A DNA stretch of 64,000 nt from positions 3,133-67,132 of the forward strand of contig CAJUTK010000002.1 in the NCBI GenBank assembly GCA_910589375.1, in the 5' to 3' direction. The notes under the pieces were generated by a model. That model searched no databases. It had not been told where the DNA came from and saw nothing but the letters and a program-made list of their open reading frames with translations. Shown one piece after another: positions 24,599 to 58,981 of the stretch (its first letter is position 1; every line of letters begins with the position of its first letter). The DNA comes from an uncultured Bacilli bacterium. Its GTDB lineage: Bacteria > Bacillota_I > Bacilli_A > RF39 > UBA660. The translations under genes and the position numbers were made by a program.

Positions 24599-26764
24599 AT
24601 GAAGAAACCAGAACTTTTATCTCCAGCAGGGAATATGGAGAGTTTGTATGCTGCTATAGAAGGTGGTTGTGATGCTATTTATTTATCGGGGACATTGTAT
24701 GGAGCACGTAGTTATGCAGCAAATTTTACAAACGAACAATTAAAAGAAGCTGTCAGTTATGCTCATATGTATAATGTAAAGGTTTATGTAACCATTAATA
24801 CTCTTATTTATGAAGCAGAAGTAAAAAGATTTTTAGAATATGTAGATTATTTGGTTTCTATTTTTGTAGATGCTGTTATTGTTCAAGATATTGGAATGAT
24901 GGACTTATTGAGAAGTATATATCCAGATTTAGAAATTCATGCTTCTACTCAAATGCATATTCATAATTTAGAGGGGGTTAAGCTTTTAGAAGAGCTTGGA
25001 TTAAAAAGAGTGGTTCTTGCTCGTGAAACTCCAATTGAGTTAATATCTGAAATAAAAGACAATTCCTCTATTGAAATAGAGATATTCGTTCATGGTGCTT
25101 TATGCATTTCTTATTCTGGTCAATGCCTTATGAGTAGTTTGATTGGAGGAAGAAGTGGTAATAGGGGAACTTGTGCACAATGTTGTAGACAACCATATGA
25201 TTTATATTCAGACGGGAAAAAACAAAATAAAGAACAGTATCTTTTGAGTACCAAAGATTTAAATACATTAGATTATATTCCTAGCCTTATGGACATTAAT
25301 GTGGATAGTTTAAAAATAGAGGGTAGAATGAAAAGACCTGAATATGTTTATTTGATAACTTCTCTTTATAGAAAAGTAATAGACTCTTATTTTTCATCTG
25401 GAAAAGTGGAGGTAAGTAGTTTGGAACAAAAAGAAATAGAAAAGATTTTTCATAGGGGATTTTCCAAAGGATTTTTATTTCATGAGGAGAACAATCAGTT
25501 TGTAAATGAATTTAGACCTAATCATATGGGAATACCAATGGGTGTAGTAAAAGATATAAAAGGCTCTTTTGTGGAAATAGAATTGACAGATAACCTAGAA
25601 ATTGGTGATGGCATTCGCATATTAGGAGAAAAAGAAGATTTTGGTACTACTATTGATGTGATATGGAAAGGGAAAGAAAAAATAAAAATTGCTAGAAAAA
25701 AAGATACAGTCACAATTCCTTTTAAAGAGAATGTTAGTAAAGGTTCTTTGGTAGTAAAGACAACTGATAAAGAACAGTTAGAGAGATTAAAAGATCAAAT
25801 TTCTAAGAAATTAAGAAAAGTTCCAATTAGTTGTTTTTTAGAAGCAAAAAAAGGTAGTCCAATACGTTTAAAACTAGAAGAAGGAAAATGTCAATGTGAA
25901 GTTGAAAGTGACTTTATAGTAGAGGAAAGTTCTACTTCTCCTATGACAAAGGAAAGAATTAAGAAGCAAATCGAAAAGTTAGGAGGGACCGTATATTCCC
26001 TAAAAGAACTTTCTATCAATATGGATGATTCTATTTTTATTCCTATTCAAAAACTAAATGAATTAAGACGTTTAGGAATTGAAAAACTAACAGAGAAACG
26101 GTTATTCCGAGATAATATTTTGAAGAAGGAGTATCATAAAAACATTCCAGATTTCCCATTAAAAAAAGAAAGGTCTGTTTATGTTACTACTTTAGAACAA
26201 TATGAAAAAATAAAGAATAAAGAATATGATGAAATTTACATAGATGGATGTATCTTCTATGAAATAAGAAATAGCAAATCTATTTTAAAAATTCCTCGTG
26301 TTCAGGAACATTTAAAATCAACAGAAGAAAAAGTATTAGTAGGGGAATTAGGTAGTGTTGCTTATTATAAAGATAGCGTATCTGATTTTTCTTTGAATGT
26401 AGTAAATTCCTATAGTATAGCGTTTCTTCATGGATTGGGGGTTAGAAAAGTAACTCTTTCTTATGAATTAAATGATTATCAAATAGAAAGAATGATAACA
26501 GAATATCATAATCGTTATAAGAAAAATCCTTGTTTAGAAATGATTGTTTCTGGACCAATAGAAGCTATGGTTATGAAATATAATTTATTTGAAAAATATC
26601 ATTTAAAAGGACAAAATAATAAATTGGTAGATAAATATCATAATCAATTTCCAATAAAATGGAAGGACGGATATGTATATATTTATCATTATCAGCCAAG
26701 AAAATTAGTAGATTTAGAAAAGTATTATGCTATGGGAATTACCTGTTTAAGAGATTCTTTTTAA
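24599..26764 (+). CDS. Peptidase U32 family protein (collagenase-like, PrtC/YhbU type) with a long C-terminal extension
   Basis: MKKPELLSPAGN...AIEGGCDAIYLSG...E..Cxxxx Cys cluster (ALCISYSGQC, CAQCCRQ). Confidence 0.8.
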   Translation: MKKPELLSPAGNMESLYAAIEGGCDAIYLSGTLYGARSYAANFTNEQLKEAVSYAHMYNVKVYVTINTLIYEAEVKRFLEYVDYLVSIFVDAVIVQDIGMMDLLRSIYPDLEIHASTQMHIHNLEGVKLLEELGLKRVVLARETPIELISEIKDNSSIEIEIFVHGALCISYSGQCLMSSLIGGRSGNRGTCAQCCRQPYDLYSDGKKQNKEQYLLSTKDLNTLDYIPSLMDINVDSLKIEGRMKRPEYVYLITSLYRKVIDSYFSSGKVEVSSLEQKEIEKIFHRGFSKGFLFHEENNQFVNEFRPNHMGIPMGVVKDIKGSFVEIELTDNLEIGDGIRILGEKEDFGTTIDVIWKGKEKIKIARKKDTVTIPFKENVSKGSLVVKTTDKEQLERLKDQISKKLRKVPISCFLEAKKGSPIRLKLEEGKCQCEVESDFIVEESSTSPMTKERIKKQIEKLGGTVYSLKELSINMDDSIFIPIQKLNELRRLGIEKLTEKRLFRDNILKKEYHKNIPDFPLKKERSVYVTTLEQYEKIKNKEYDEIYIDGCIFYEIRNSKSILKIPRVQEHLKSTEEKVLVGELGSVAYYKDSVSDFSLNVVNSYSIAFLHGLGVRKVTLSYELNDYQIERMITEYHNRYKKNPCLEMIVSGPIEAMVMKYNLFEKYHLKGQNNKLVDKYHNQFPIKWKDGYVYIYHYQPRKLVDLEKYYAMGITCLRDSF

Positions 26765-26780
26765 GAATCTCTTTTTTTTA
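26748..26780 (+). terminator. Rho-independent terminator after the U32 gene
   Basis: aagagattc-tttttaa-gaatctctt plus a T8 run. Confidence 0.7.
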
Positions 26781-26892
26781 GAAGGAAATTGGGATGTTAT
26801 CAATAATAATTAAGTAGGAAGGTGATAAAACGAAAAAATATCCATTTGAGCATCAAGAAGAGGAGAAAGATTGCGCCATTGCCTGTTTTTTA

Positions 26893-28908
26893 ATGATTAT
26901 GGAGTATTATGGTGGCTATATGGATACAGAAGATATAAGGGAGCTTTTTCATACTAATAAAAATGGAACGAATGCATTTGATATTGTAGAAGGAGTAAAA
27001 CAAATTGGCTTTTCTGCAAAGGGGGTTTTTTGTCCAACAGATAAGTTATTAGAAGAAGAATTAATGCTTCCTTGTATAGCAAACGTAACGATGAATCAAT
27101 CTTATTCTCACTTTGTAGTGATTTATGAAATAGATAAGAAGAAGCAGAAGTTAATAATAGCAGATCCTGCCAATAAAATTATGGAGATAAAGTTAGATGT
27201 TTTTAATGCTATCTATAGTGGAAATCTACTGTTTTTATATCCTATAAAACCATTACTACATTTTGAAAAAAAGAGAATTTCATTAAGAGATATATGGATA
27301 CTTTTACAGGATAGTAAAAAATTAATTATGCAAGTTTTTTTGATATCTATCTTTATCATAACTTATGCAATTGCCACTTCTTTTTATGGTGAAACTATGT
27401 TAAAAAAATTACAAATGAATCAGCAAAGCTCTTATTTTTTATTTCTATTTCTCATTTTTTCAATTCTTACTTTTTTAAAGTTAACAAGTGAATTTATTAG
27501 AACTAAATTAATTCTTTGGATAGAAAAGAATGTGGATATTTTATTAACCCAGGATATATTTTTTAAAGTTTTATTCCTTCCATATTGTTATTATCATAAT
27601 CACACCTCGGGAGACATTTTGTCTAGAATGAATGGAATTAATGATATTAAAGTTGCTATTAGTAAATGGCTTATGGTTCTTATAGTTGACATTCCTCTCA
27701 TGCTGATATCTTTTATTTGTCTTTATATTCTCCATTCTAAATTAGCAATTATAATAGTTTTATTTTTTATATTACAGCTTTTCGTATTAAAACTTTTTAG
27801 TAATCCTTTAAAAGAAAAAATAGAAGAATGTCAAAAAGAAAATGCATACTTATCCACTCTTAAAGTAGAAGGAATTCAGTCTTTTGAGACAATCAAAGGA
27901 ATTTCCTTAGAAAAGTATTTTTATAAAAAGTGGATGGAACAAAAAGTTTCTTTTATCAGAAAAATTCATAGCTTAGAAAGTATTATCGGAGTAGAAAGTT
28001 ATATAAAAGAATTTTTTCAAGAATTTAGCTCTTTACTTTTATTGCTGTTTGGCTGTCTATTTGTAAAAGAAGGTTCATTACAATTTTCTACTTTATTGAC
28101 AATTCAGACTTTGTCTCTTTATTTTTATACTCCTGTTGGAGAATTTATAGATTTGAATAGAGATACGAAACAAGCAGTGGTAGCTTGGGAGAGACTTTCT
28201 ATATTATCTAAAAAAGATTCTGGAAAAGGATTTTTAAAAAATTATCAAACGGATAATATTATTTTTCAAGATGTAACTTATTCTTATAGACCAAGTATGG
28301 AGGTATTACATCACGTAAACCTAACTATAAAAAAGGAAGATAAGGTTTTAATTTTAGGAAGTAGTGGAAGTGGAAAAAGTACTTTATTTAAACTGTTAAA
28401 AAGGTATTATGAAATCCCTAGAAATAAAATTCTTTTAGGAATTAATGATATAAATGATTATGATAATGTTAATTTTATTTCCTATATTCATCAAAATGAA
28501 AATTTGTATACAGGAAGTATGCTTGAAAATATTGTATTAGGAGAGAAAGTTGATGAAAGCTATTTAGAAAAAGTTTGTAAAATTTGTAAATTAGATGAAA
28601 TTATAAATAGAGAACAGTTAGGATACTATCAATTAATAGAAGAAAATGGAATTAATCTTTCTGGTGGTGAAAGACAGAGAATCGTTCTAGCTAGGACTTT
28701 GCTTAAACCATTTTATATCTTGATAATAGATGAAGGACTGAATCAATTAGATGTAAATCTTGAAAGAAAAATCTTAAAGGATATTTTTCATGAGTTTTAC
28801 GATAAAACGATTATTGTAATTTCACATAGGGAAGAAAATTTAGATTTATTTTCTCATAAGGTAAGAATGTCTCATGGAAAAATTATAGAGGATGTGGAAA
28901 AATGCTAG
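26893..28908 (+). CDS. Bacteriocin-type ABC transporter with N-terminal C39 peptidase domain; the 5' end is disrupted (catalytic-Cys segment is in frame upstream but has no start)
   Basis: The C39 motif QEEEKDCAIACFLMIMEYYGG lies in frame at 26854-26892, immediately after a stop at 26815. His region YSHFVVIY; 6 TM; Walker A GSSGSGKST; signature LSGGERQRIVLAR; Walker B ILIIDEG. Confidence 0.75.
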   Translation: MIMEYYGGYMDTEDIRELFHTNKNGTNAFDIVEGVKQIGFSAKGVFCPTDKLLEEELMLPCIANVTMNQSYSHFVVIYEIDKKKQKLIIADPANKIMEIKLDVFNAIYSGNLLFLYPIKPLLHFEKKRISLRDIWILLQDSKKLIMQVFLISIFIITYAIATSFYGETMLKKLQMNQQSSYFLFLFLIFSILTFLKLTSEFIRTKLILWIEKNVDILLTQDIFFKVLFLPYCYYHNHTSGDILSRMNGINDIKVAISKWLMVLIVDIPLMLISFICLYILHSKLAIIIVLFFILQLFVLKLFSNPLKEKIEECQKENAYLSTLKVEGIQSFETIKGISLEKYFYKKWMEQKVSFIRKIHSLESIIGVESYIKEFFQEFSSLLLLLFGCLFVKEGSLQFSTLLTIQTLSLYFYTPVGEFIDLNRDTKQAVVAWERLSILSKKDSGKGFLKNYQTDNIIFQDVTYSYRPSMEVLHHVNLTIKKEDKVLILGSSGSGKSTLFKLLKRYYEIPRNKILLGINDINDYDNVNFISYIHQNENLYTGSMLENIVLGEKVDESYLEKVCKICKLDEIINREQLGYYQLIEENGINLSGGERQRIVLARTLLKPFYILIIDEGLNQLDVNLERKILKDIFHEFYDKTIIVISHREENLDLFSHKVRMSHGKIIEDVEKC

Positions 28909-29345
28909 ACTCTAGAATGTATTTACACCCCAATACTATTTTAAAAAGAAAAATGCCTTCCTATTTTTGTTATTGGGTAGTTTTCCATTTATTATTTTGT
29001 CTTTTATTTTTCCCAATTTTTGCTTTTTATAAAATAGAGAAAAGGCTTACTGTTATTGGCTATTATCAAAATAACCAAGTACGGATAGTTACAGATAAAA
29101 GCTTTTTTCAACTTAAAACAGAAAATCTTAAAATAAATGAAAAGATGTATTTGTACCATATAAATAAAATACAACCTATTGCTTATGAAGAAGGAAAAGC
29201 TAGTTTATGGGAAGTAATGATATCTTTGAATCTACCAGATAGTTGGAAAGTTGATAATAATCAATTTGAACTGTCTTTCATACAAGAAGAAACAACTTTG
29301 CTAAAACAATTTTTAAAAACTATAAAGAAAGGGATGAGATTATAA
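28902..29345 (+). CDS. Short membrane-anchored accessory protein of the bacteriocin exporter (HlyD/LcnD-like N-terminal region only)
   Basis: One TM followed by a beta-rich stretch; translationally coupled to the ABC gene. Confidence 0.3.
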   Translation: MLDSRMYLHPNTILKRKMPSYFCYWVVFHLLFCLLFFPIFAFYKIEKRLTVIGYYQNNQVRIVTDKSFFQLKTENLKINEKMYLYHINKIQPIAYEEGKASLWEVMISLNLPDSWKVDNNQFELSFIQEETTLLKQFLKTIKKGMRL

Positions 29346-29482
29346 GAGAATTACAAGAAGCAGAAATGAAAAAAATAAATGGAGGAGGCATATCCCTAGG
29401 TGCAGGTGCTTTAATTGTTATGGGTGCTGTATTTATAATCGGGGTAATTGATGGTTTTCTAAGGCCACTAAAATGTCATTAG
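29339..29482 (+). CDS. Double-glycine-leader bacteriocin-like peptide (alpha); start codon unresolved (in-frame ATT at 29339 with an SD, ATG only at 29366)
   Basis: Frame reads ...EIIRELQEAEMKKINGG|GISLGAGALIVMGAVFIIGVIDGFLRPLKCH*. The leader has the consensus EL...I.GG. The mature part has GxxxG motifs. Confidence 0.5.
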   Translation: MIRELQEAEMKKINGGGISLGAGALIVMGAVFIIGVIDGFLRPLKCH

Positions 29483-29489
29483 GTGAAAA

Positions 29490-29657
29490 ATGAGAGATCT
29501 TACGAAAGAAGAATTACAAAAAATTTATGGTGGTGCCATTAGTGCTACTTTATTAAATGCCTTTATTAGAGGTATTAATACTATTTTAGAAGTAGGTAGA
29601 AGTTTTGGAAGCGCTATTCGAAGAATCATTGCTAAAGATGCATGCCCTATATCTTAA
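29490..29657 (+). CDS. Double-glycine-leader bacteriocin-like peptide (beta)
   Basis: MRDLTKEELQKIYGG|AISATLLNAFIRGINTILEVGRSFGSAIRRIIAKDACPIS*. RBS aggtga overlaps the stop of the alpha peptide. Confidence 0.65.
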   Translation: MRDLTKEELQKIYGGAISATLLNAFIRGINTILEVGRSFGSAIRRIIAKDACPIS

Positions 29658-29803
29658 AATGTAAACAAATAGTATTAAAAATAGTTATTTTTCTTTTTCT
29701 TTTCTTTTTATTAGCATTAGGAAGTTATCTATTTTTGGAATTGGGTAGATATTTAGGTACAATGATACGATATTTAGTAGAAGGAAATATCTGTTTTTTC
29801 TAG
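29642..29803 (+). CDS. Candidate bacteriocin immunity protein (53 aa, single TM), overlapping the 3' end of peptide beta
   Basis: MPYILKCKQIVLKIVIFLFLFFLLALGSYLFLELGRYLGTMIRYLVEGNICFF*. No clear SD; the position and hydrophobicity fit an immunity gene. Confidence 0.25.
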   Translation: MPYILKCKQIVLKIVIFLFLFFLLALGSYLFLELGRYLGTMIRYLVEGNICFF

Positions 29804-29869
29804 ATATTTCTTTTTTTTTGTAAAAATAGAAATATCCCTTTATTTTTTGTAAAAAAGTGTCTTTTTTTG

Positions 29870-29898
29870 TTGAAAACTAAAAGGAATGGTGCTATAAT
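29870..29898 (+). promoter_or_regulatory. Promoter TTGAAA-17-TATAAT for rpsU
   Basis: ttgaaa at 29870-29875 and tataat at 29893-29898. Confidence 0.5.
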
Positions 29899-31747: not shown

Positions 31748-31809
31748 AGTATATTCTAAAAGTTCATAAAAAGTAATACATTAGAACTTTGTTTTTTAGG
31801 GGGATTAGA

Positions 31810-33960
31810 GTGGAGAATAAAAGTTATGGTATTTTAATGAAGCGCCATAAAGTAAATGAAAATATATGCATATATCATCCAATTTATTTAATAGCTGGTA
31901 GGGATACTGGTCAAGATTTTGAAGATGAAATGGGATATTTTTATACTTATGCAACAGACACAGATTCGTTCTGCTTACGAGAAAATGATTTAAGTGTAGC
32001 ATATATTATTTCAGAAGAAGAGTTACAAAGACAATATGGCGAAGTATCTTTATCAGAAGCAAAAATGGGATATTTTAGTAGCATTAATGAATATATACAT
32101 GTTGGCTATTATATGGACGTTGAAGATGAACTTATTATAAAAACTTATAATGCAGAAGTATTATTAGAACAGGTATTATCAAAAGATGAAAGTGCATCAC
32201 CAAAGTCTTCTGCTGAACAAAGCCAGGCAGAGGGAATTCCATTTCTTAGAATTGAGCGTGAAAAAAACGTAGGAGAAAGAGAGTCTACATCTTTGATGGT
32301 AGAAGAATTGATTCCTATTACAGCAACTGATTTTAAGAAAATGTTAGATATTAGGGAAGACGGAAAATTGAGATCTATCTTGCAAAATATGTATGAACAA
32401 TTTCAAAATGGTAGGCTGCCAGTAACAATTGGAATGGATGAAAGTGAGATATATCCAACTCTTGAGAATCAAGAAATTACGGGAAAAAAGATTGTTTCGT
32501 TTTTTAAAGATATCTGTAATAAAATGATAATAGCAAGTTCAATGGAACAGATTTCTCTATTAGAAACAAATTTTAAAAACGGTTTTACAGCTGCAGTACT
32601 TATTTTAGATACTCATGCTAATAATGAGATTGCAGCTTCAGCAGCAGAAGAAATTTTTTATAGAATTATAGATGAAATTGCAGTAATAACTGCTTGTAGA
32701 GATATTGCTAGAGTAAAAACTGATATAGCAAATGTTTTAAAAACAGAAATGGAAGAAGTTGCAAGGGCGGCTGCTATTTATGACGAATATGATGCAAAAT
32801 TTGAAAAAACTATGGGAGATGGAGAGCCTCAATCTAGTCAAAAAAGTTTTTCATTAAGAAAAGTAAATGCTAAGAAATTGAAAGAATTCTTTGATAGGAG
32901 AATTGCTGGTCAAGAAGCAGCTAAAAGAGCAGTTATTTCCGCTGTTACAATGAATATATTATCAGAAAATCCGGATGATAAGACTTCTTGTTTTTTAGTA
33001 GGACCTCCAGGAAGTGGAAAAACATTGATTGCGAAAACTTTAGGAGAATTTTTGAATATTCCATGTGAAATTGTGGATACCACACAATTAACGAGTCCAG
33101 GATATATTGGTGGAAATATAGAGGACTTTTTAGCTAGACTTATTACAAAAGCTGGTGGAGATTTAGAGAAAGCTGAAAATGGTATTGTTGTTTTCGATGA
33201 ATTAGACAAAAAAGGATCTGATAAAAAATCAGATATTGCTGGTCAAGGTGTGCTTAATTCATTATTACCTTTTTTCCAAGGTGCAACTTATCAAGTTGCA
33301 AAAGGCAAAGATAAAGTAGATTTTAATACTTCTAGATTAACTATATTTGCAACTGGTGCTTGTACTGATGTAGCAAAAGCAAAATTGCAAAAAGAAGGAT
33401 TAGATCATTATAAGAAAACGAAAATTGGATTTTTAGCAGATGTTTCTGATAATCAAGCGGAAGAAGATTTTGTTTATCCGCAACTAGAGCCAGAAGATTT
33501 TGTAAAGTATGGTGGTATGACAGACGAAATAATTGGAAGAATTACAACGATATGCCAATTATCTGGTCATACAGTTGAGACATTAAAGTTTATTTTGACT
33601 GATATTGAAACTAGTGCGTTATTATTACAGCAAAAAGTTCTTGCTAAAATTGGTATTTCTCTAAGATGGACTGAAGATTATTTAGAAGCGGTAGCGCATA
33701 AAGCAATTCAACTGAAAACTGGTGCTAGATCACTTAAATCAACAGTGGAGAAGTCTATTATGGAGGCACGCTGGGAAGTTTTATTGAATCCTGATAAATA
33801 TAGAGAGATTCTATTAACCGCAGAATGTGTAGAGAATCCTTTTAAATGTAAGTTAGTAGATCGAACAGGAAGAGAATTTACAGTGGAGGAAACATTAGTA
33901 GAAGAGCAACCATTGAATCAAAAAGTAAAAAAAGTTAGTGCTGCGCAACAAAATATATGA
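31810..33960 (+). CDS. ClpX-paralog AAA+ ATPase with a novel ~370-aa N-terminal domain replacing the zinc-binding domain
   Basis: GTG start after the RBS agggggatt. ClpX-like KKLKEFFDRRIAGQEAAKRAVISAV; Walker A GPPGSGKT; Walker B VVFDELDKK; an IGF-like loop KIGFLAD; sensor-2 KTGARSLKSTVE. Confidence 0.65.
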   Translation: MENKSYGILMKRHKVNENICIYHPIYLIAGRDTGQDFEDEMGYFYTYATDTDSFCLRENDLSVAYIISEEELQRQYGEVSLSEAKMGYFSSINEYIHVGYYMDVEDELIIKTYNAEVLLEQVLSKDESASPKSSAEQSQAEGIPFLRIEREKNVGERESTSLMVEELIPITATDFKKMLDIREDGKLRSILQNMYEQFQNGRLPVTIGMDESEIYPTLENQEITGKKIVSFFKDICNKMIIASSMEQISLLETNFKNGFTAAVLILDTHANNEIAASAAEEIFYRIIDEIAVITACRDIARVKTDIANVLKTEMEEVARAAAIYDEYDAKFEKTMGDGEPQSSQKSFSLRKVNAKKLKEFFDRRIAGQEAAKRAVISAVTMNILSENPDDKTSCFLVGPPGSGKTLIAKTLGEFLNIPCEIVDTTQLTSPGYIGGNIEDFLARLITKAGGDLEKAENGIVVFDELDKKGSDKKSDIAGQGVLNSLLPFFQGATYQVAKGKDKVDFNTSRLTIFATGACTDVAKAKLQKEGLDHYKKTKIGFLADVSDNQAEEDFVYPQLEPEDFVKYGGMTDEIIGRITTICQLSGHTVETLKFILTDIETSALLLQQKVLAKIGISLRWTEDYLEAVAHKAIQLKTGARSLKSTVEKSIMEARWEVLLNPDKYREILLTAECVENPFKCKLVDRTGREFTVEETLVEEQPLNQKVKKVSAAQQNI

Positions 33961-58800: not shown

Positions 58801-58981
58801 TATTGATAAACCACATAAATTATGTTATAATAGGCTCATGTGAGCAAGATAGTACCGTAGACAGTAGGGGATGAAAATCTTAATTATCCTACCGAGGACT
58901 TAATTTAATTAAGAAACTCTAAAGTCCCTGCGGTAAGTGGGGACTTTTTTAACGGTATTACACAAGATAAGGAGGTGTAAT
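58801..58981 (+). promoter_or_regulatory. rplJ (L10) leader with attenuator hairpin
   Basis: Structured leader: a bulged hairpin gtaggggat...atcctac and a terminator-like aaagtccc-(11 nt)-gggacttt + T6 at 58921-58950. Confidence 0.45.

What the first reader, a model, noticed from the sequence alone, without database searches (positions are those of the whole stretch)
29270..29657. Pair of double-glycine-leader peptides with GxxxG motifs: a two-peptide (class IIb-like) bacteriocin, the first lacking a canonical start
The beta peptide (29490-29657) is clean: leader MRDLTKEELQKIYGG, a 40-aa cationic amphipathic mature peptide, and an RBS aggtga. The alpha peptide frame reads ...ERDEIIRELQEAEMKKINGG|GISLGAGALIVMGAVFIIGVIDGFLRPLKCH. 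This is a perfect GG leader (E-8, L-12, I-4) with a Gly-zipper mature part typical of class IIb alpha/beta pairs. The only in-frame ATG leaves a 5-residue leader. An ATG at 29334 with a good SD is 1 nt out of frame and stops after 3 codons (it is the tail of the accessory gene). So the peptide either starts at the in-frame ATT 29339 (SD aaaggga 5 nt upstream), or the locus carries a second frameshift, or it is decaying.
Basis: partly seen in the sequence, partly recalled or inferred. Interest (0 to 1): 0.75.

Follow-up and report, generated by a model that had tools for sequence, protein, structure and literature searches.

The report
Two-peptide bacteriocin operon, non-AUG starts
This is a real, conserved two-peptide bacteriocin-type operon of uncultured small-genome gut Bacilli; the first peptide gene is not frameshifted but has had its ATG start mutated to ATA (and still looks functional), while the exporter gene begins at a conserved ACG codon.

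Summary
Window 29342-29482 and 29490-29657 encode two double-glycine-leader peptides (mature 31 and 40 aa, with GxxxG motifs). They sit in one operon: C39-ABC exporter, 147-aa accessory, alpha, beta, 53-aa membrane ORF, terminator. About 50 distinct homologous alpha+beta pairs exist in metagenomes, and alpha just passes NCBIfam TIGR03949 (class IIb).

The missing start is neither a frameshift nor a sequencing error. Relatives read TTATGAGAG, where the accessory stop TGA overlaps the alpha start ATG. The window and 11 independent assemblies read TTATAAGAG. One G-to-A change keeps the stop and turns the start, at leader position -15, into ATA 29342.

Since that change, mature alpha has accumulated 5 synonymous and 0 non-synonymous differences, so it is still under selection. 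A 7-nt Shine-Dalgarno sits at normal spacing from ATA.

The "first frameshift" in the exporter is also not one. In every relative of this clade the C39 domain starts at ACG, 7 nt after GGAGG, with no canonical start possible. The codons downstream of ACG are under strong purifying selection.

The 53-aa ORF is a leaderless, membrane-anchored paralog of beta and the likely immunity protein.

Function is inferred, not shown. I rate it a new variant of a known kind, of moderate interest.

The parts
26749..26773 (+). Intrinsic terminator of the upstream U32-peptidase gene. It marks the 5' boundary of the operon.
   Evidence: 11-bp stem followed by a T-run.
26817..26826 (+). Extended Shine-Dalgarno GGAAGGTGAT of the exporter gene.
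   Evidence: duplex with the anti-SD of -13.7 kcal/mol, spacing 7 to ACG. It is the strongest SD in the locus. Relatives carry GGGAGGTGAT.
26830..28908 (+). Peptidase-C39 / ABC bacteriocin exporter, about 692 aa, starting at the near-cognate codon ACG 26830. The first ATG (26893) lies downstream of the catalytic Cys.
   Evidence: Pfam PF03412 3.6e-31, PF00664, PF00005, and TIGR01193 2.9e-103. An in-frame TAG lies 15 nt upstream of ACG, and no ATG/GTG/TTG precedes the DCAIAC motif. For the 21 codons after ACG, pS is 0.9-1.2 and pN 0.07-0.10 against relatives.
28902..29345 (+). Accessory protein of 147 aa: an N-terminal TM helix plus a beta-barrel, resembling a minimal membrane-fusion protein. 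Its stop TAA 29343-29345 overlaps the alpha start.
29326..29332 (+). Shine-Dalgarno AGAAAGG serving alpha.
   Evidence: 7-nt match, -10.5 kcal/mol, aligned spacing 6 to ATA 29342. Conserved in relatives that have ATG at that position.
29342..29482 (+). Alpha precursor. Start is ATA 29342 (ancestral ATG), leader 29342-29386 (15 aa, ...KKINGG), mature 31-aa hydrophobic Gly-zipper peptide 29387-29479, stop 29480-29482.
29490..29657 (+). Beta precursor. ATG start, 15-aa GG leader, mature 40-aa cationic amphipathic peptide with GRSFG and one Cys.
29642..29803 (+). orf3, a 53-aa single-TM protein and leaderless paralog of beta (ELGRYLGTMIRYLVEGNIC aligns with EVGRSFGSAIRRIIAKDAC). It is the candidate immunity protein. 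Its start overlaps the end of beta by 16 nt.
   Evidence: Conserved downstream of beta in most loci. hhalign of the beta profile against the orf3 profile gives probability 96.2%, E 2.6e-9, 56 columns.
29779..29819 (+). Intrinsic terminator: a 15-bp AT-rich hairpin followed by a T9 run, overlapping the orf3 stop. It marks the 3' boundary of the operon.
   Evidence: dG -13 kcal/mol, z -4.66, 0 of 200 shuffles fold as well. The rpsU promoter follows at 29870-29898.

Best explanation
The region is the structural-gene part of a chromosomal, class IIb-type two-peptide bacteriocin operon in an uncultured small-genome member of the Bacilli.

Gene order (26830-29819): C39-ABC exporter, minimal membrane-fusion-like accessory, alpha, beta, orf3, terminator.

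Proposed mechanism (inferred by analogy with class IIb):
- Alpha and beta are made as precursors with 15-residue double-glycine leaders.
- The C39 domain of the exporter cuts after GG and exports a 31-aa hydrophobic Gly-zipper peptide (3139 Da) and a 40-aa cationic amphipathic peptide (4230 Da).
- The two peptides pack helix-to-helix through GxxxG motifs in the target membrane and permeabilise it.
- orf3, a membrane-anchored leaderless paralog of beta, protects the producer.

The alpha start (shown by comparison):
- In the ancestor, the alpha ATG overlapped the accessory stop as ATGA.
- In this lineage one G-to-A transition made it ATAA. The accessory still stops, and alpha now begins at AUA 29342.

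How alpha is still made (inferred):
- Alpha is translated from AUA, possibly helped by the adjacent AUU.
- Translation is driven by the 7-nt SD at normal spacing and by coupling to ribosomes terminating 1 nt away.
- Output is probably reduced relative to an AUG start.

The exporter likewise starts at a conserved near-cognate codon, ACG, behind an extended SD. The locus therefore appears to be translationally throttled rather than broken.
For: Peptide identity:
- Alpha scores 21.8 bits on TIGR03949 (cutoff 21.5). Five of six family alphas hit it, best E 5.6e-7.
- Beta matches the GG-leader model TIGR01847 at its cutoff.
- The exporter has C39, ABC_membrane and ABC_tran domains.
- Alpha is followed by a beta homolog wherever downstream sequence is intact, about 50 distinct pairs. 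orf3 follows in most loci.

The start codon:
- The junction is TTATGAGAG in L006-L013 and ATTTGAAAG (TTG start) in L014.
- It is TTATAAGAG in the window and in L001, L005, L079-L082 and L084-L088. That makes 12 assemblies from different samples.
- Window versus L005 (92.5% nucleotide identity, both ATA): mature alpha has 5 synonymous and 0 non-synonymous differences. The chance of that under neutrality is about 0.27^5 = 0.001. Beta has 4 synonymous and 1 non-synonymous.
- The SD AGAAAGG pairs at -10.5 kcal/mol with aligned spacing 6 to ATA. The internal ATG 29366 has no SD (-2.9). The start region is unstructured.
- AUA or AUU occupies the same start position independently in L035, L054 and L046/47/49.
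- In S. aureus, AUA and AUU starts behind extended SDs give about 10-30% of AUG output (PMC13009471).

The exporter start:
- TAG-GGAGGTGATAAA-ACG is conserved across the clade, with no canonical start before the catalytic Cys.
- The N-terminal 21 codons have pS 0.9-1.2 and pN 0.07-0.10.
- Other lineages carry ATT, ATA, TTG, GTG or ATG at exactly SD+7.
- ACG-initiated GFP begins with Met in E. coli (bioRxiv 10.1101/063800).

orf3 and the accessory:
- orf3 is homologous to beta.
- A 42-aa one-TMD immunity protein, CbnZ, is a precedent (PMC6957408).
- The accessory model resembles membrane-fusion proteins.
Against: - No expression, export or killing data exist, and the organism is uncultured.
- Alpha passes TIGR03949 by only 0.3 bits, largely through its leader and Gly-rich N-terminus. 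It fails Pfam PF10439 (15.8 against 27.1).
- AUA is a weak start, 0.02-3% of AUG in E. coli. Class IIb peptides act at about 1:1 (PMC2850506), so an AUA alpha beside an AUG beta is an odd stoichiometry.
- The selection test rests on only five substitutions.
- Related loci do decay. In L009 the alpha 3' end is replaced. In L083 the exporter, the accessory and most of alpha are deleted.
- No regulator or pheromone gene lies nearby.
- The locus has stayed next to rpsU across deep divergence, which is unusual for a bacteriocin.
Confidence: 0.65

Rival explanations
1. Alpha is a recently silenced gene. The ATG-to-ATA change abolished production, and the locus is on its way to a beta-only or immunity-only ("cheater") state.
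For: AUA is a poor start in E. coli. Relatives show decay: L009 is disrupted and L083 keeps only beta and orf3. Start loss is a common first step of pseudogenisation (general knowledge).
Against: The ATA allele is shared by two sub-lineages that differ at 7.5% of nucleotides. Since then mature alpha has collected 5 synonymous and 0 non-synonymous changes, and its ORF is intact in 12 assemblies. The exporter, accessory, beta and orf3 all have pN/pS of 0.07-0.20. The SD is intact at optimal spacing. AUA and AUU arose independently in three other lineages that also keep intact ORFs.
Confidence: 0.15
2. Alpha is translated from the internal ATG 29366, giving a 38-aa precursor with a truncated MKKINGG leader. 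This is how gene callers annotate it.
For: It is the only canonical in-frame start. Database entries P0001, and the genes called in L005 and L080-L088, use it.
Against: No SD precedes it (-2.9 kcal/mol). Met at -7 is a conserved hydrophobic leader residue in relatives that start 8 codons earlier. A 7-residue leader lacks the -12 and -15 positions and falls below the 15-30 residue range that defines the class (PMC2850506).
Confidence: 0.07
3. The exported pair is not an antimicrobial. It could be a signalling pair or a conserved membrane-active factor (for example host- or self-directed) of reduced-genome Bacilli.
For: The locus has stayed at one chromosomal site, upstream of rpsU-yqeY, down to about 36-41% exporter identity, and some carrier contigs are only about 0.8 Mb. 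That looks like vertical inheritance of a core trait, which is atypical for bacteriocins. The nearest named relatives of the exporter and accessory are uncharacterised Mycoplasma families (NF045998, NF045999).
Against: No histidine kinase or response regulator lies nearby. The mature peptides are 31 and 40 aa, hydrophobic or amphipathic, with GxxxG motifs, which is typical of pore formers rather than pheromones. A co-transcribed small TM protein paralogous to beta fits an immunity role.
Confidence: 0.12
4. The missing start reflects a frameshift or a sequencing or assembly error around 29330-29345.
Against: The sequence is identical in 11 other assemblies from different samples and assemblers. 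ATG 29334 is the conserved Met145 of the accessory protein (KKGM). Relatives need no indel, only G instead of A at 29344.
Confidence: 0.01

Closest known systems
Class IIb two-peptide bacteriocins with a complete single operon, e.g. lactococcin G (lagA, lagB, lagC, lagD, lagE)
   Same: Two adjacent genes for GG-leader peptides of 30-40 aa with GxxxG motifs. An immunity gene, a C39-ABC exporter and an accessory gene lie in the same operon (PMC2850506). One peptide is very hydrophobic and the other cationic and amphipathic.
   Different: There is no sequence membership: NF038035 and NF038034 score 14-17 bits against a cutoff of 37. The accessory is 147 aa rather than the HlyD-like accessory of roughly 450 aa (size from general knowledge). 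The immunity candidate is a 53-aa paralog of beta. Each peptide has one conserved C-terminal Cys. The exporter and alpha use non-AUG starts. The locus is chromosomally fixed next to rpsU.
NCBIfam TIGR03949: class IIb bacteriocin, lactobin A/cerein 7B family
   Same: Alpha reaches the curated cutoff (21.8-21.9 against 21.5 bits). Five of six alphas and 17 of 39 betas of the family match at E<0.1. The shared features are the GG leader and the Gly-rich N-terminal mature region.
   Different: The match covers only the leader and the first 16 or so mature residues. The conserved core G(I/A)VF(L/I)IGVIDGxxRPLKC is not part of that model. The window's own beta does not hit it.
Carnobacteriocin XY immunity protein CbnZ (42 aa, one TMD)
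   Same: A very small, single-TMD protein encoded beside the two peptide genes, and the shortest known class IIb immunity protein (PMC6957408). orf3 is 53 aa with one TMD.
   Different: orf3 is homologous to its own beta peptide. I know of no report that CbnZ or any other class IIb immunity protein is a paralog of a structural peptide (own knowledge). Immunity by orf3 is untested.
Non-canonical start codons behind extended SDs in Bacilli (S. aureus infC and ccpN AUA, cvfC1 AUU)
   Same: AUA or AUU starts are preceded by strong, extended SDs at proper spacing, are conserved, and give reduced but real expression of about 10-30% of AUG (PMC13009471).
   Different: Here the codons are inferred from comparison only. 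The exporter uses ACG. My literature search found no natural conserved bacterial example of an ACG start.
Mycoplasma Mbov_0121-family C39 ABC transporter plus MAG1140-family protein (NF045998, NF045999)
   Same: A C39-ABC exporter paired with a small protein of about 126-147 aa. Both window proteins give their most specific named hits to these models.
   Different: Both score far below the cutoffs (251.7 against 500 and 17.2 against 35). Nothing on the function of these families turned up in the literature search.

Membership tests
Class IIb two-peptide bacteriocin (definition in PMC2850506) | Two different peptide genes lie next to each other in one operon. | tested here: met
   Alpha 29342-29482 and beta 29490-29657 are 7 nt apart between two terminators. 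The adjacency holds in about 50 distinct homologous loci.
Class IIb two-peptide bacteriocin (definition in PMC2850506) | Both precursors carry a 15-30-residue double-glycine leader. | tested here: met
   Beta has a 15-aa leader and scores at the TIGR01847 cutoff. Alpha has a 15-aa leader if it starts at ATA 29342, the position of ATG or TTG in relatives. L-12, E-8 and I-4 are present. Caveat: the alpha start codon is non-canonical.
Class IIb two-peptide bacteriocin (definition in PMC2850506) | A dedicated ABC transporter has an N-terminal C39 peptidase domain that cleaves after GG. | tested here: met
   PF03412 3.6e-31, PF00664, PF00005, and TIGR01193 E 2.9e-103 (below its equivalog-type cutoff). 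The catalytic Cys motif DCAIAC is present once the ACG start is accepted. Cleavage itself was not tested.
Class IIb two-peptide bacteriocin (definition in PMC2850506) | An immunity gene lies in the same operon. | tested here: inconclusive
   orf3 (29642-29803) is a conserved 53-aa one-TMD protein directly after beta and is homologous to beta. Its immunity function is inferred only.
Class IIb two-peptide bacteriocin (definition in PMC2850506) | The mature peptides carry GxxxG (or similar) helix-helix motifs. | tested here: met
   Alpha has G1xxxG5 and G19xxxG23, and beta has G21xxxG25. The beta G36 and G40 columns are nearly invariant and invariant, and alpha G34 and G38 are invariant.
Class IIb two-peptide bacteriocin (definition in PMC2850506) | [quoted passage not shown] | not testable with these tools
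   This needs synthetic or purified peptides and a sensitive indicator strain.
NCBIfam TIGR03949 (lactobin A/cerein 7B class IIb family) | HMM score at or above the curated cutoff of 21.5 bits. | tested here: met
   Alpha scores 21.8 and 21.9, which is marginal. The window's beta gives no hit, and 17 of 39 beta homologs hit at E<0.1.
Pfam PF10439 Bacteriocin_IIc | HMM score at or above the gathering cutoff of 27.1 bits. | tested here: not met
   Alpha scores 15.8 bits, E 0.014. Beta gives no hit.
Lactococcin G / enterocin 1071 families (NF038035, NF038034) | HMM score at or above 37 bits. | tested here: not met
   Scores are 14-17 bits, from leader-region matches only.
Mycoplasma Mbov_0121 / MAG1140 system (NF045998, NF045999) | HMM scores at or above 500 bits (transporter) and 35 bits (small protein). 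| tested here: not met
   Scores are 251.7 and 17.2 bits, so the relationship is distant at best.
HlyD / membrane-fusion-protein type bacteriocin accessory | An N-terminal TM anchor plus MFP domains (beta-barrel, lipoyl, alpha-hairpin). | tested here: inconclusive

The most novel reading that the evidence does not exclude
Near-cognate initiation codons are a selected, recurrent feature of this bacteriocin system and not damage.

- The exporter uses a clade-conserved ACG start. This would be a natural, conserved ACG initiation codon in bacteria.
- Other lineages use AUU or AUA at the same SD+7 position.
- Alpha has switched to AUA or AUU at least four times.
- Together these changes throttle an otherwise unregulated toxin-export operon.

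In addition, the toxin may be an alpha-beta heterodimer joined through the single conserved C-terminal Cys of each peptide. A membrane-anchored beta mimic (orf3), which carries the same GxxxG-x3-R-x7-C module, would then neutralise it in the producer.
Probability: 0.35. Interest if true: 0.75.

Novelty: new variant of a known kind. Interest (0 to 1): 0.55.

Why it matters
- It defines a large, uncharacterised two-peptide family. An alpha profile finds 361 clusters at 50% identity, and no hit returned by the name-carrying protein searches had a source name. The family occurs in uncultured small-genome gut Bacilli, for which little is known about antagonism.
- Automatic annotation systematically mis-calls this locus. 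Alpha is truncated to 38 aa, and the exporter is truncated so that it lacks its catalytic Cys. The reason is that the true starts are ATA and ACG. The same problem will affect RiPP and bacteriocin mining pipelines.
- It offers a clean comparative case for natural ACG, AUU and AUA initiation behind extended Shine-Dalgarno sequences in Firmicutes, which reporter fusions can test directly.
- An immunity protein that is a paralog of one toxin peptide, together with paired conserved cysteines, gives concrete and testable hypotheses about how two-peptide bacteriocins assemble and how producers protect themselves.

Tried and rejected
- **Frameshift or sequencing error at 29330-29345.** Rejected. Eleven other assemblies carry the identical sequence, and relatives differ by a single substitution, not an indel.
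- **Poly-A frameshift or programmed -1 slip from GTG 26822 for the exporter.** Rejected. That GTG abuts the SD with 0-2 nt spacing. Other lineages have ATT, ATA, TTG, GTG or ATG at the ACG position with no slippery run.
- **Upstream mini-ORF or readthrough of TAG 26815.** Rejected. The upstream ATG is not conserved in relatives.
- **Genome-wide use of odd start codons.** Rejected for this window. An SD-guided scan of about 65 ORFs found the exporter ACG as the only convincing case among them. Alpha was too short to be included in that scan.
- **Structured RNA or a riboswitch at the start sites.** No Rfam hit falls in the locus, and both start regions fold less stably than their shuffles.
- **Sequence relatives with solved structures.** None found for alpha or beta.
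- **Metagenome scan with accessory-derived patterns.** It found nothing. Repeating it with an alpha alignment gave 64 loci.
- **Genome-collection scan.** Only 2 loci: an uncultured Bacilli MAG and a probably mis-binned 5.8-kb contig.
- **Literature searches.** Nothing useful for MAG1140 or Mbov_0121 function, interchain disulfides in two-peptide bacteriocins, or bacterial ACG starts.
- **Data to disregard.** The beta rows printed are off-frame because of my spacer error. The beta counts to use are those.
Full report
**1. The observation**

- Beta (29490-29657) reads MRDLTKEELQKIYGG|AISATLLNAFIRGINTILEVGRSFGSAIRRIIAKDACPIS. AGGTGA sits at normal spacing from its ATG.
- The alpha frame reads ...ERDEIIRELQEAEMKKINGG|GISLGAGALIVMGAVFIIGVIDGFLRPLKCH*.
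- The only in-frame canonical start in alpha is ATG 29366, which gives MKKINGG.
- ATG 29334 belongs to the accessory gene: ...KKG-M-R-L-TAA, ending at 29345.
- Mature alpha is 31 aa and 3138.8 Da, with GRAVY 1.48 and GxxxG at residues 1-5 and 19-23.
- Mature beta is 40 aa and 4229.9 Da, with net charge +3, strong amphipathicity and GxxxG at 21-25.

**2. The operon**

The operon lies between the terminator of a U32-peptidase gene (26749-26773) and a strong AT-rich terminator (29779-29819; dG -13, z -4.7). It contains five genes.
- A C39-ABC exporter: PF03412 3.6e-31, PF00664, PF00005, TIGR01193 2.9e-103.
- A 147-aa accessory protein.
- Alpha.
- Beta.
- A 53-aa single-TM ORF, orf3 (29642-29803).

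Downstream come a consensus promoter and rpsU. No kinase, regulator or pheromone gene is nearby.

**3. Is it a real peptide family?**

Yes.
- Alpha scores 21.8 bits on NCBIfam TIGR03949, "class IIb bacteriocin, lactobin A/cerein 7B family" (cutoff 21.5). Beta matches the GG-leader model TIGR01847 exactly at its cutoff. Pfam Bacteriocin_IIc is below threshold.
- Protein searches found alpha homologs with normal ATG starts and 15-aa leaders. P0002 is MQNLNKQELMSINGG|GISLGAG...RPLKCN, and P0003 is similar.
- A metagenome scan with an alpha alignment returned 64 loci from human gut, animal gut and other samples.
- In every locus with intact downstream sequence, alpha is followed at once by a beta homolog. 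That gives about 50 distinct pairs. The alpha core is G(I/A)VF(L/I)IGVIDG(Y/F)xRPLKC(N/H). The beta core is xGRSLG(S/T)AIRRx6C(P)x.
- An alpha profile finds 361 clusters (50% identity) among 1.84 billion representatives, nearly all 44-50 aa long.
- No hit returned by the name-carrying protein searches has a source name, and none has a solved-structure relative.

**4. The missing start of alpha is a point mutation in a stop/start overlap**

- Close relatives keep the same synteny: U32, ABC exporter, accessory, alpha, beta, rpsU, yqeY, NUDIX.
- The junction reads TTATGAGAGAATTA in L006-L013, whose accessory proteins are 51-61% identical to the window's. The accessory ends TTA-TGA and alpha begins ATG-AGA-GAA (MREL...), a 4-nt ATGA overlap.
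- L014 has ATT-TGA with a TTG start.
- The window reads TTATAAGAGAATTA.
- A single G-to-A transition at 29344 therefore keeps the accessory stop (TGA to TAA) and converts the alpha start, leader position -15, from ATG to ATA.
- The same sequence occurs in 11 other assemblies from different samples: L001, L005, L079-L082 and L084-L088. This excludes a sequencing error.
- These assemblies form two sub-lineages that differ at 7.5% of nucleotides over the locus.

**5. Is alpha still functional?**

The evidence favours yes.
- Between the two ATA sub-lineages, mature alpha shows 5 synonymous and 0 non-synonymous differences (pS 0.20). With 27% synonymous sites, the chance of this under neutrality is about 0.001.
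- Beta shows 4 synonymous and 1 non-synonymous. The exporter, accessory and orf3 have pN/pS of 0.17-0.20.
- A 7-nt SD, AGAAAGG, pairs at -10.5 kcal/mol and sits at aligned spacing 6 from ATA. That is the spacing seen for ordinary genes in this window.
- The internal ATG 29366 has no SD (-2.9 kcal/mol).
- ATA overlaps the accessory stop, so termination-reinitiation coupling is plausible. This step is inferred.
- In S. aureus, also a member of the Bacilli, AUA and AUU starts behind extended SDs give about 10-30% of AUG expression (PMC13009471). In E. coli the figure is 0.02-3% (bioRxiv 10.1101/063800).
- AUA or AUU at the same start position arose independently in L035 (ATT), L054 (ATA) and L046/47/49 (ATA). 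Their sister sequences have ATG.

**6. The exporter's "frameshift" is a conserved ACG start**

- The first ATG of the exporter ORF (26893) lies downstream of the catalytic Cys (DCAIAC).
- The frame is open back to TAG 26815 and contains no ATG, GTG or TTG.
- All relatives of the clade (L006/7/13, L009, L014, L079-L087) read TAG-GGAGGTGATAAA-ACG-AAA-AAG-TAT-CCA. ACG lies exactly 7 nt after GGAGG.
- The 21 codons after ACG are saturated at synonymous sites (pS 0.9-1.2) but have pN of only 0.07-0.10 between the window and its relatives. They are therefore translated.
- The four in-frame codons between TAG and ACG form the SD itself.
- More distant lineages carry, at the same SD+7 position:
  - ATT in the L019 group, L036 and L072;
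  - ATA in L053;
  - TTG in L017;
  - GTG in L030, L043, L049, L052, L057 and L073;
  - ATG in the others.
- A slip from the out-of-frame GTG is implausible. That GTG abuts the SD, and the other lineages have no slippery run.
- An SD-guided scan of about 65 ORFs in the window found no other convincing non-canonical start. Alpha itself was too short to be scanned. Non-canonical starts are therefore specific to this locus and not a genome-wide habit.
- My literature search found no natural conserved bacterial ACG start.

**7. The other components**

*orf3*
- orf3 is conserved after beta in most loci, and its start overlaps the end of beta.
- A profile-profile comparison of 39 betas with 33 orf3s gives probability 96.2%, E 2.6e-9, over 56 columns.
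- The C-terminal modules align residue for residue, including the Cys position. Beta reads LEVGRSFGSAIRRIIAKDAC, and orf3 reads LELGRYLGTMIRYLVEGNIC.
- orf3 is thus a leaderless, TM-anchored paralog of beta and the best immunity candidate.
- A 42-aa one-TMD immunity protein, CbnZ, is a precedent for the size (PMC6957408).

*Accessory protein*
- It has no Pfam hit.
- Its AF2 model (pLDDT 79.9) is a TM helix plus a beta-barrel.
- It looks like a minimal HlyD-like accessory.

*Mycoplasma link*
- Both the exporter and the accessory give distant, sub-threshold hits to the Mycoplasma families NF045998 and NF045999.

**8. Mechanism: shown versus inferred**

- Shown by sequence and comparison: the operon structure, the GG leaders, the intact C39 and ABC motifs, the conserved pairing of alpha with beta, the ATG-to-ATA history, purifying selection, and the homology of orf3 to beta.
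- Inferred from the class IIb paradigm (PMC2850506): cleavage after GG with export, GxxxG-mediated helix-helix pairing and membrane permeabilisation, and immunity by orf3.
- Speculative: each peptide has one conserved Cys near its C-terminus. The only locus that lacks the Cys in both peptides (L072) also lacks orf3. This hints at an interchain disulfide, but it rests on a single event.

**9. Comparison and novelty**

- The architecture matches single-operon class IIb systems such as lactococcin G. Membership of that sequence family fails.
- Membership of TIGR03949 is met only marginally.
- Six features distinguish this system:
  - a minimal accessory protein;
  - an immunity candidate that is a paralog of beta;
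  - paired conserved cysteines;
  - recurrent ACG, AUU and AUA starts;
  - long-term residence next to rpsU, down to about 36-41% exporter identity;
  - carriers that include contigs of about 0.8 Mb and a MAG labelled only "uncultured Bacilli bacterium".
- I rate it a new variant of a known kind.

**10. Verdict**

- Its frameshift and decay alternatives are not supported.
- The true start is most likely ATA 29342.
- Interest is moderate (0.55). It is ordinary as a bacteriocin. It is notable for the comparative evidence of near-cognate initiation and for the beta-mimic immunity hypothesis.

Noticed in passing
window 26815-26893: The C39-ABC exporter has no ATG, GTG or TTG between the in-frame TAG and its catalytic Cys. 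ACG 26830 sits 7 nt after an extended SD and is conserved across the clade. Other lineages carry ATT, ATA, TTG, GTG or ATG at the same position. Gene callers truncate the protein to start at MIMEYYGG, which removes the active-site Cys.
   Followed up: yes
window 29642-29803: The 53-aa orf3 is a leaderless, TM-anchored paralog of the beta peptide. It has the same GxxxG-x3-R-x7-C module, and hhalign gives E 2.6e-9. It is a possible immunity protein that works by mimicry.
   Followed up: yes
window 28902-29345: The accessory protein has no Pfam family. Its predicted fold is a TM helix plus a beta-barrel, which best matches membrane-fusion (HlyD/AcrA-type) adaptors. It gives a weak hit to the Mycoplasma MAG1140 family.
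   Followed up: partly
L017, L018, L019-L029, L032, L036, L038, L042, L044, L065, L069, L072, L073, L075: The peptide operon sits directly upstream of rpsU-yqeY even in lineages whose exporter is only about 36-41% identical. This implies ancient vertical inheritance at one site in very small genomes, which is unusual for a bacteriocin locus.
   Followed up: partly
L083 1-2520 (equivalent to window positions up to about 29455): In one sample of the same lineage, the exporter, the accessory and the 5' two-thirds of alpha are replaced by foreign genes (sigma-70-like, DUF3800, HNH). Beta and orf3 are retained. This may be an immunity-only variant.
   Followed up: partly
L009 6691-7767: The alpha C-terminus is replaced (…IDGYIPQTYT*) and a 308-aa reverse-strand gene follows. 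Beta and orf3 are missing, so this relative's locus is disrupted.
   Followed up: no
L072 4001-4300: This is the only locus where both alpha and beta lack the conserved C-terminal Cys. It also lacks orf3, and rpsU follows directly. The co-loss hints that the two cysteines work together.
   Followed up: no
P0019, P0075, P0107 (database proteins): Some database entries fuse accessory and alpha into one ORF of 185-190 aa. For P0075, whose sequence matches the L057-type locus, the junction reads the TGA stop as Trp, which points to code-4 gene calling; P0019 has the same KGEW junction, but I did not check its DNA. P0107 fuses alpha and beta into a single 102-aa ORF.
   Followed up: no
window 58837-58959: A ribosomal protein L10 leader (RF00557, 77 bits) is the only Rfam hit in the window.
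   Followed up: no
window 31777-33960: The large AAA/ClpB-like ORF has no canonical start with a recognisable SD near its 5' end; the listed TTG 31789 has none. Its true start was not examined.
   Followed up: no
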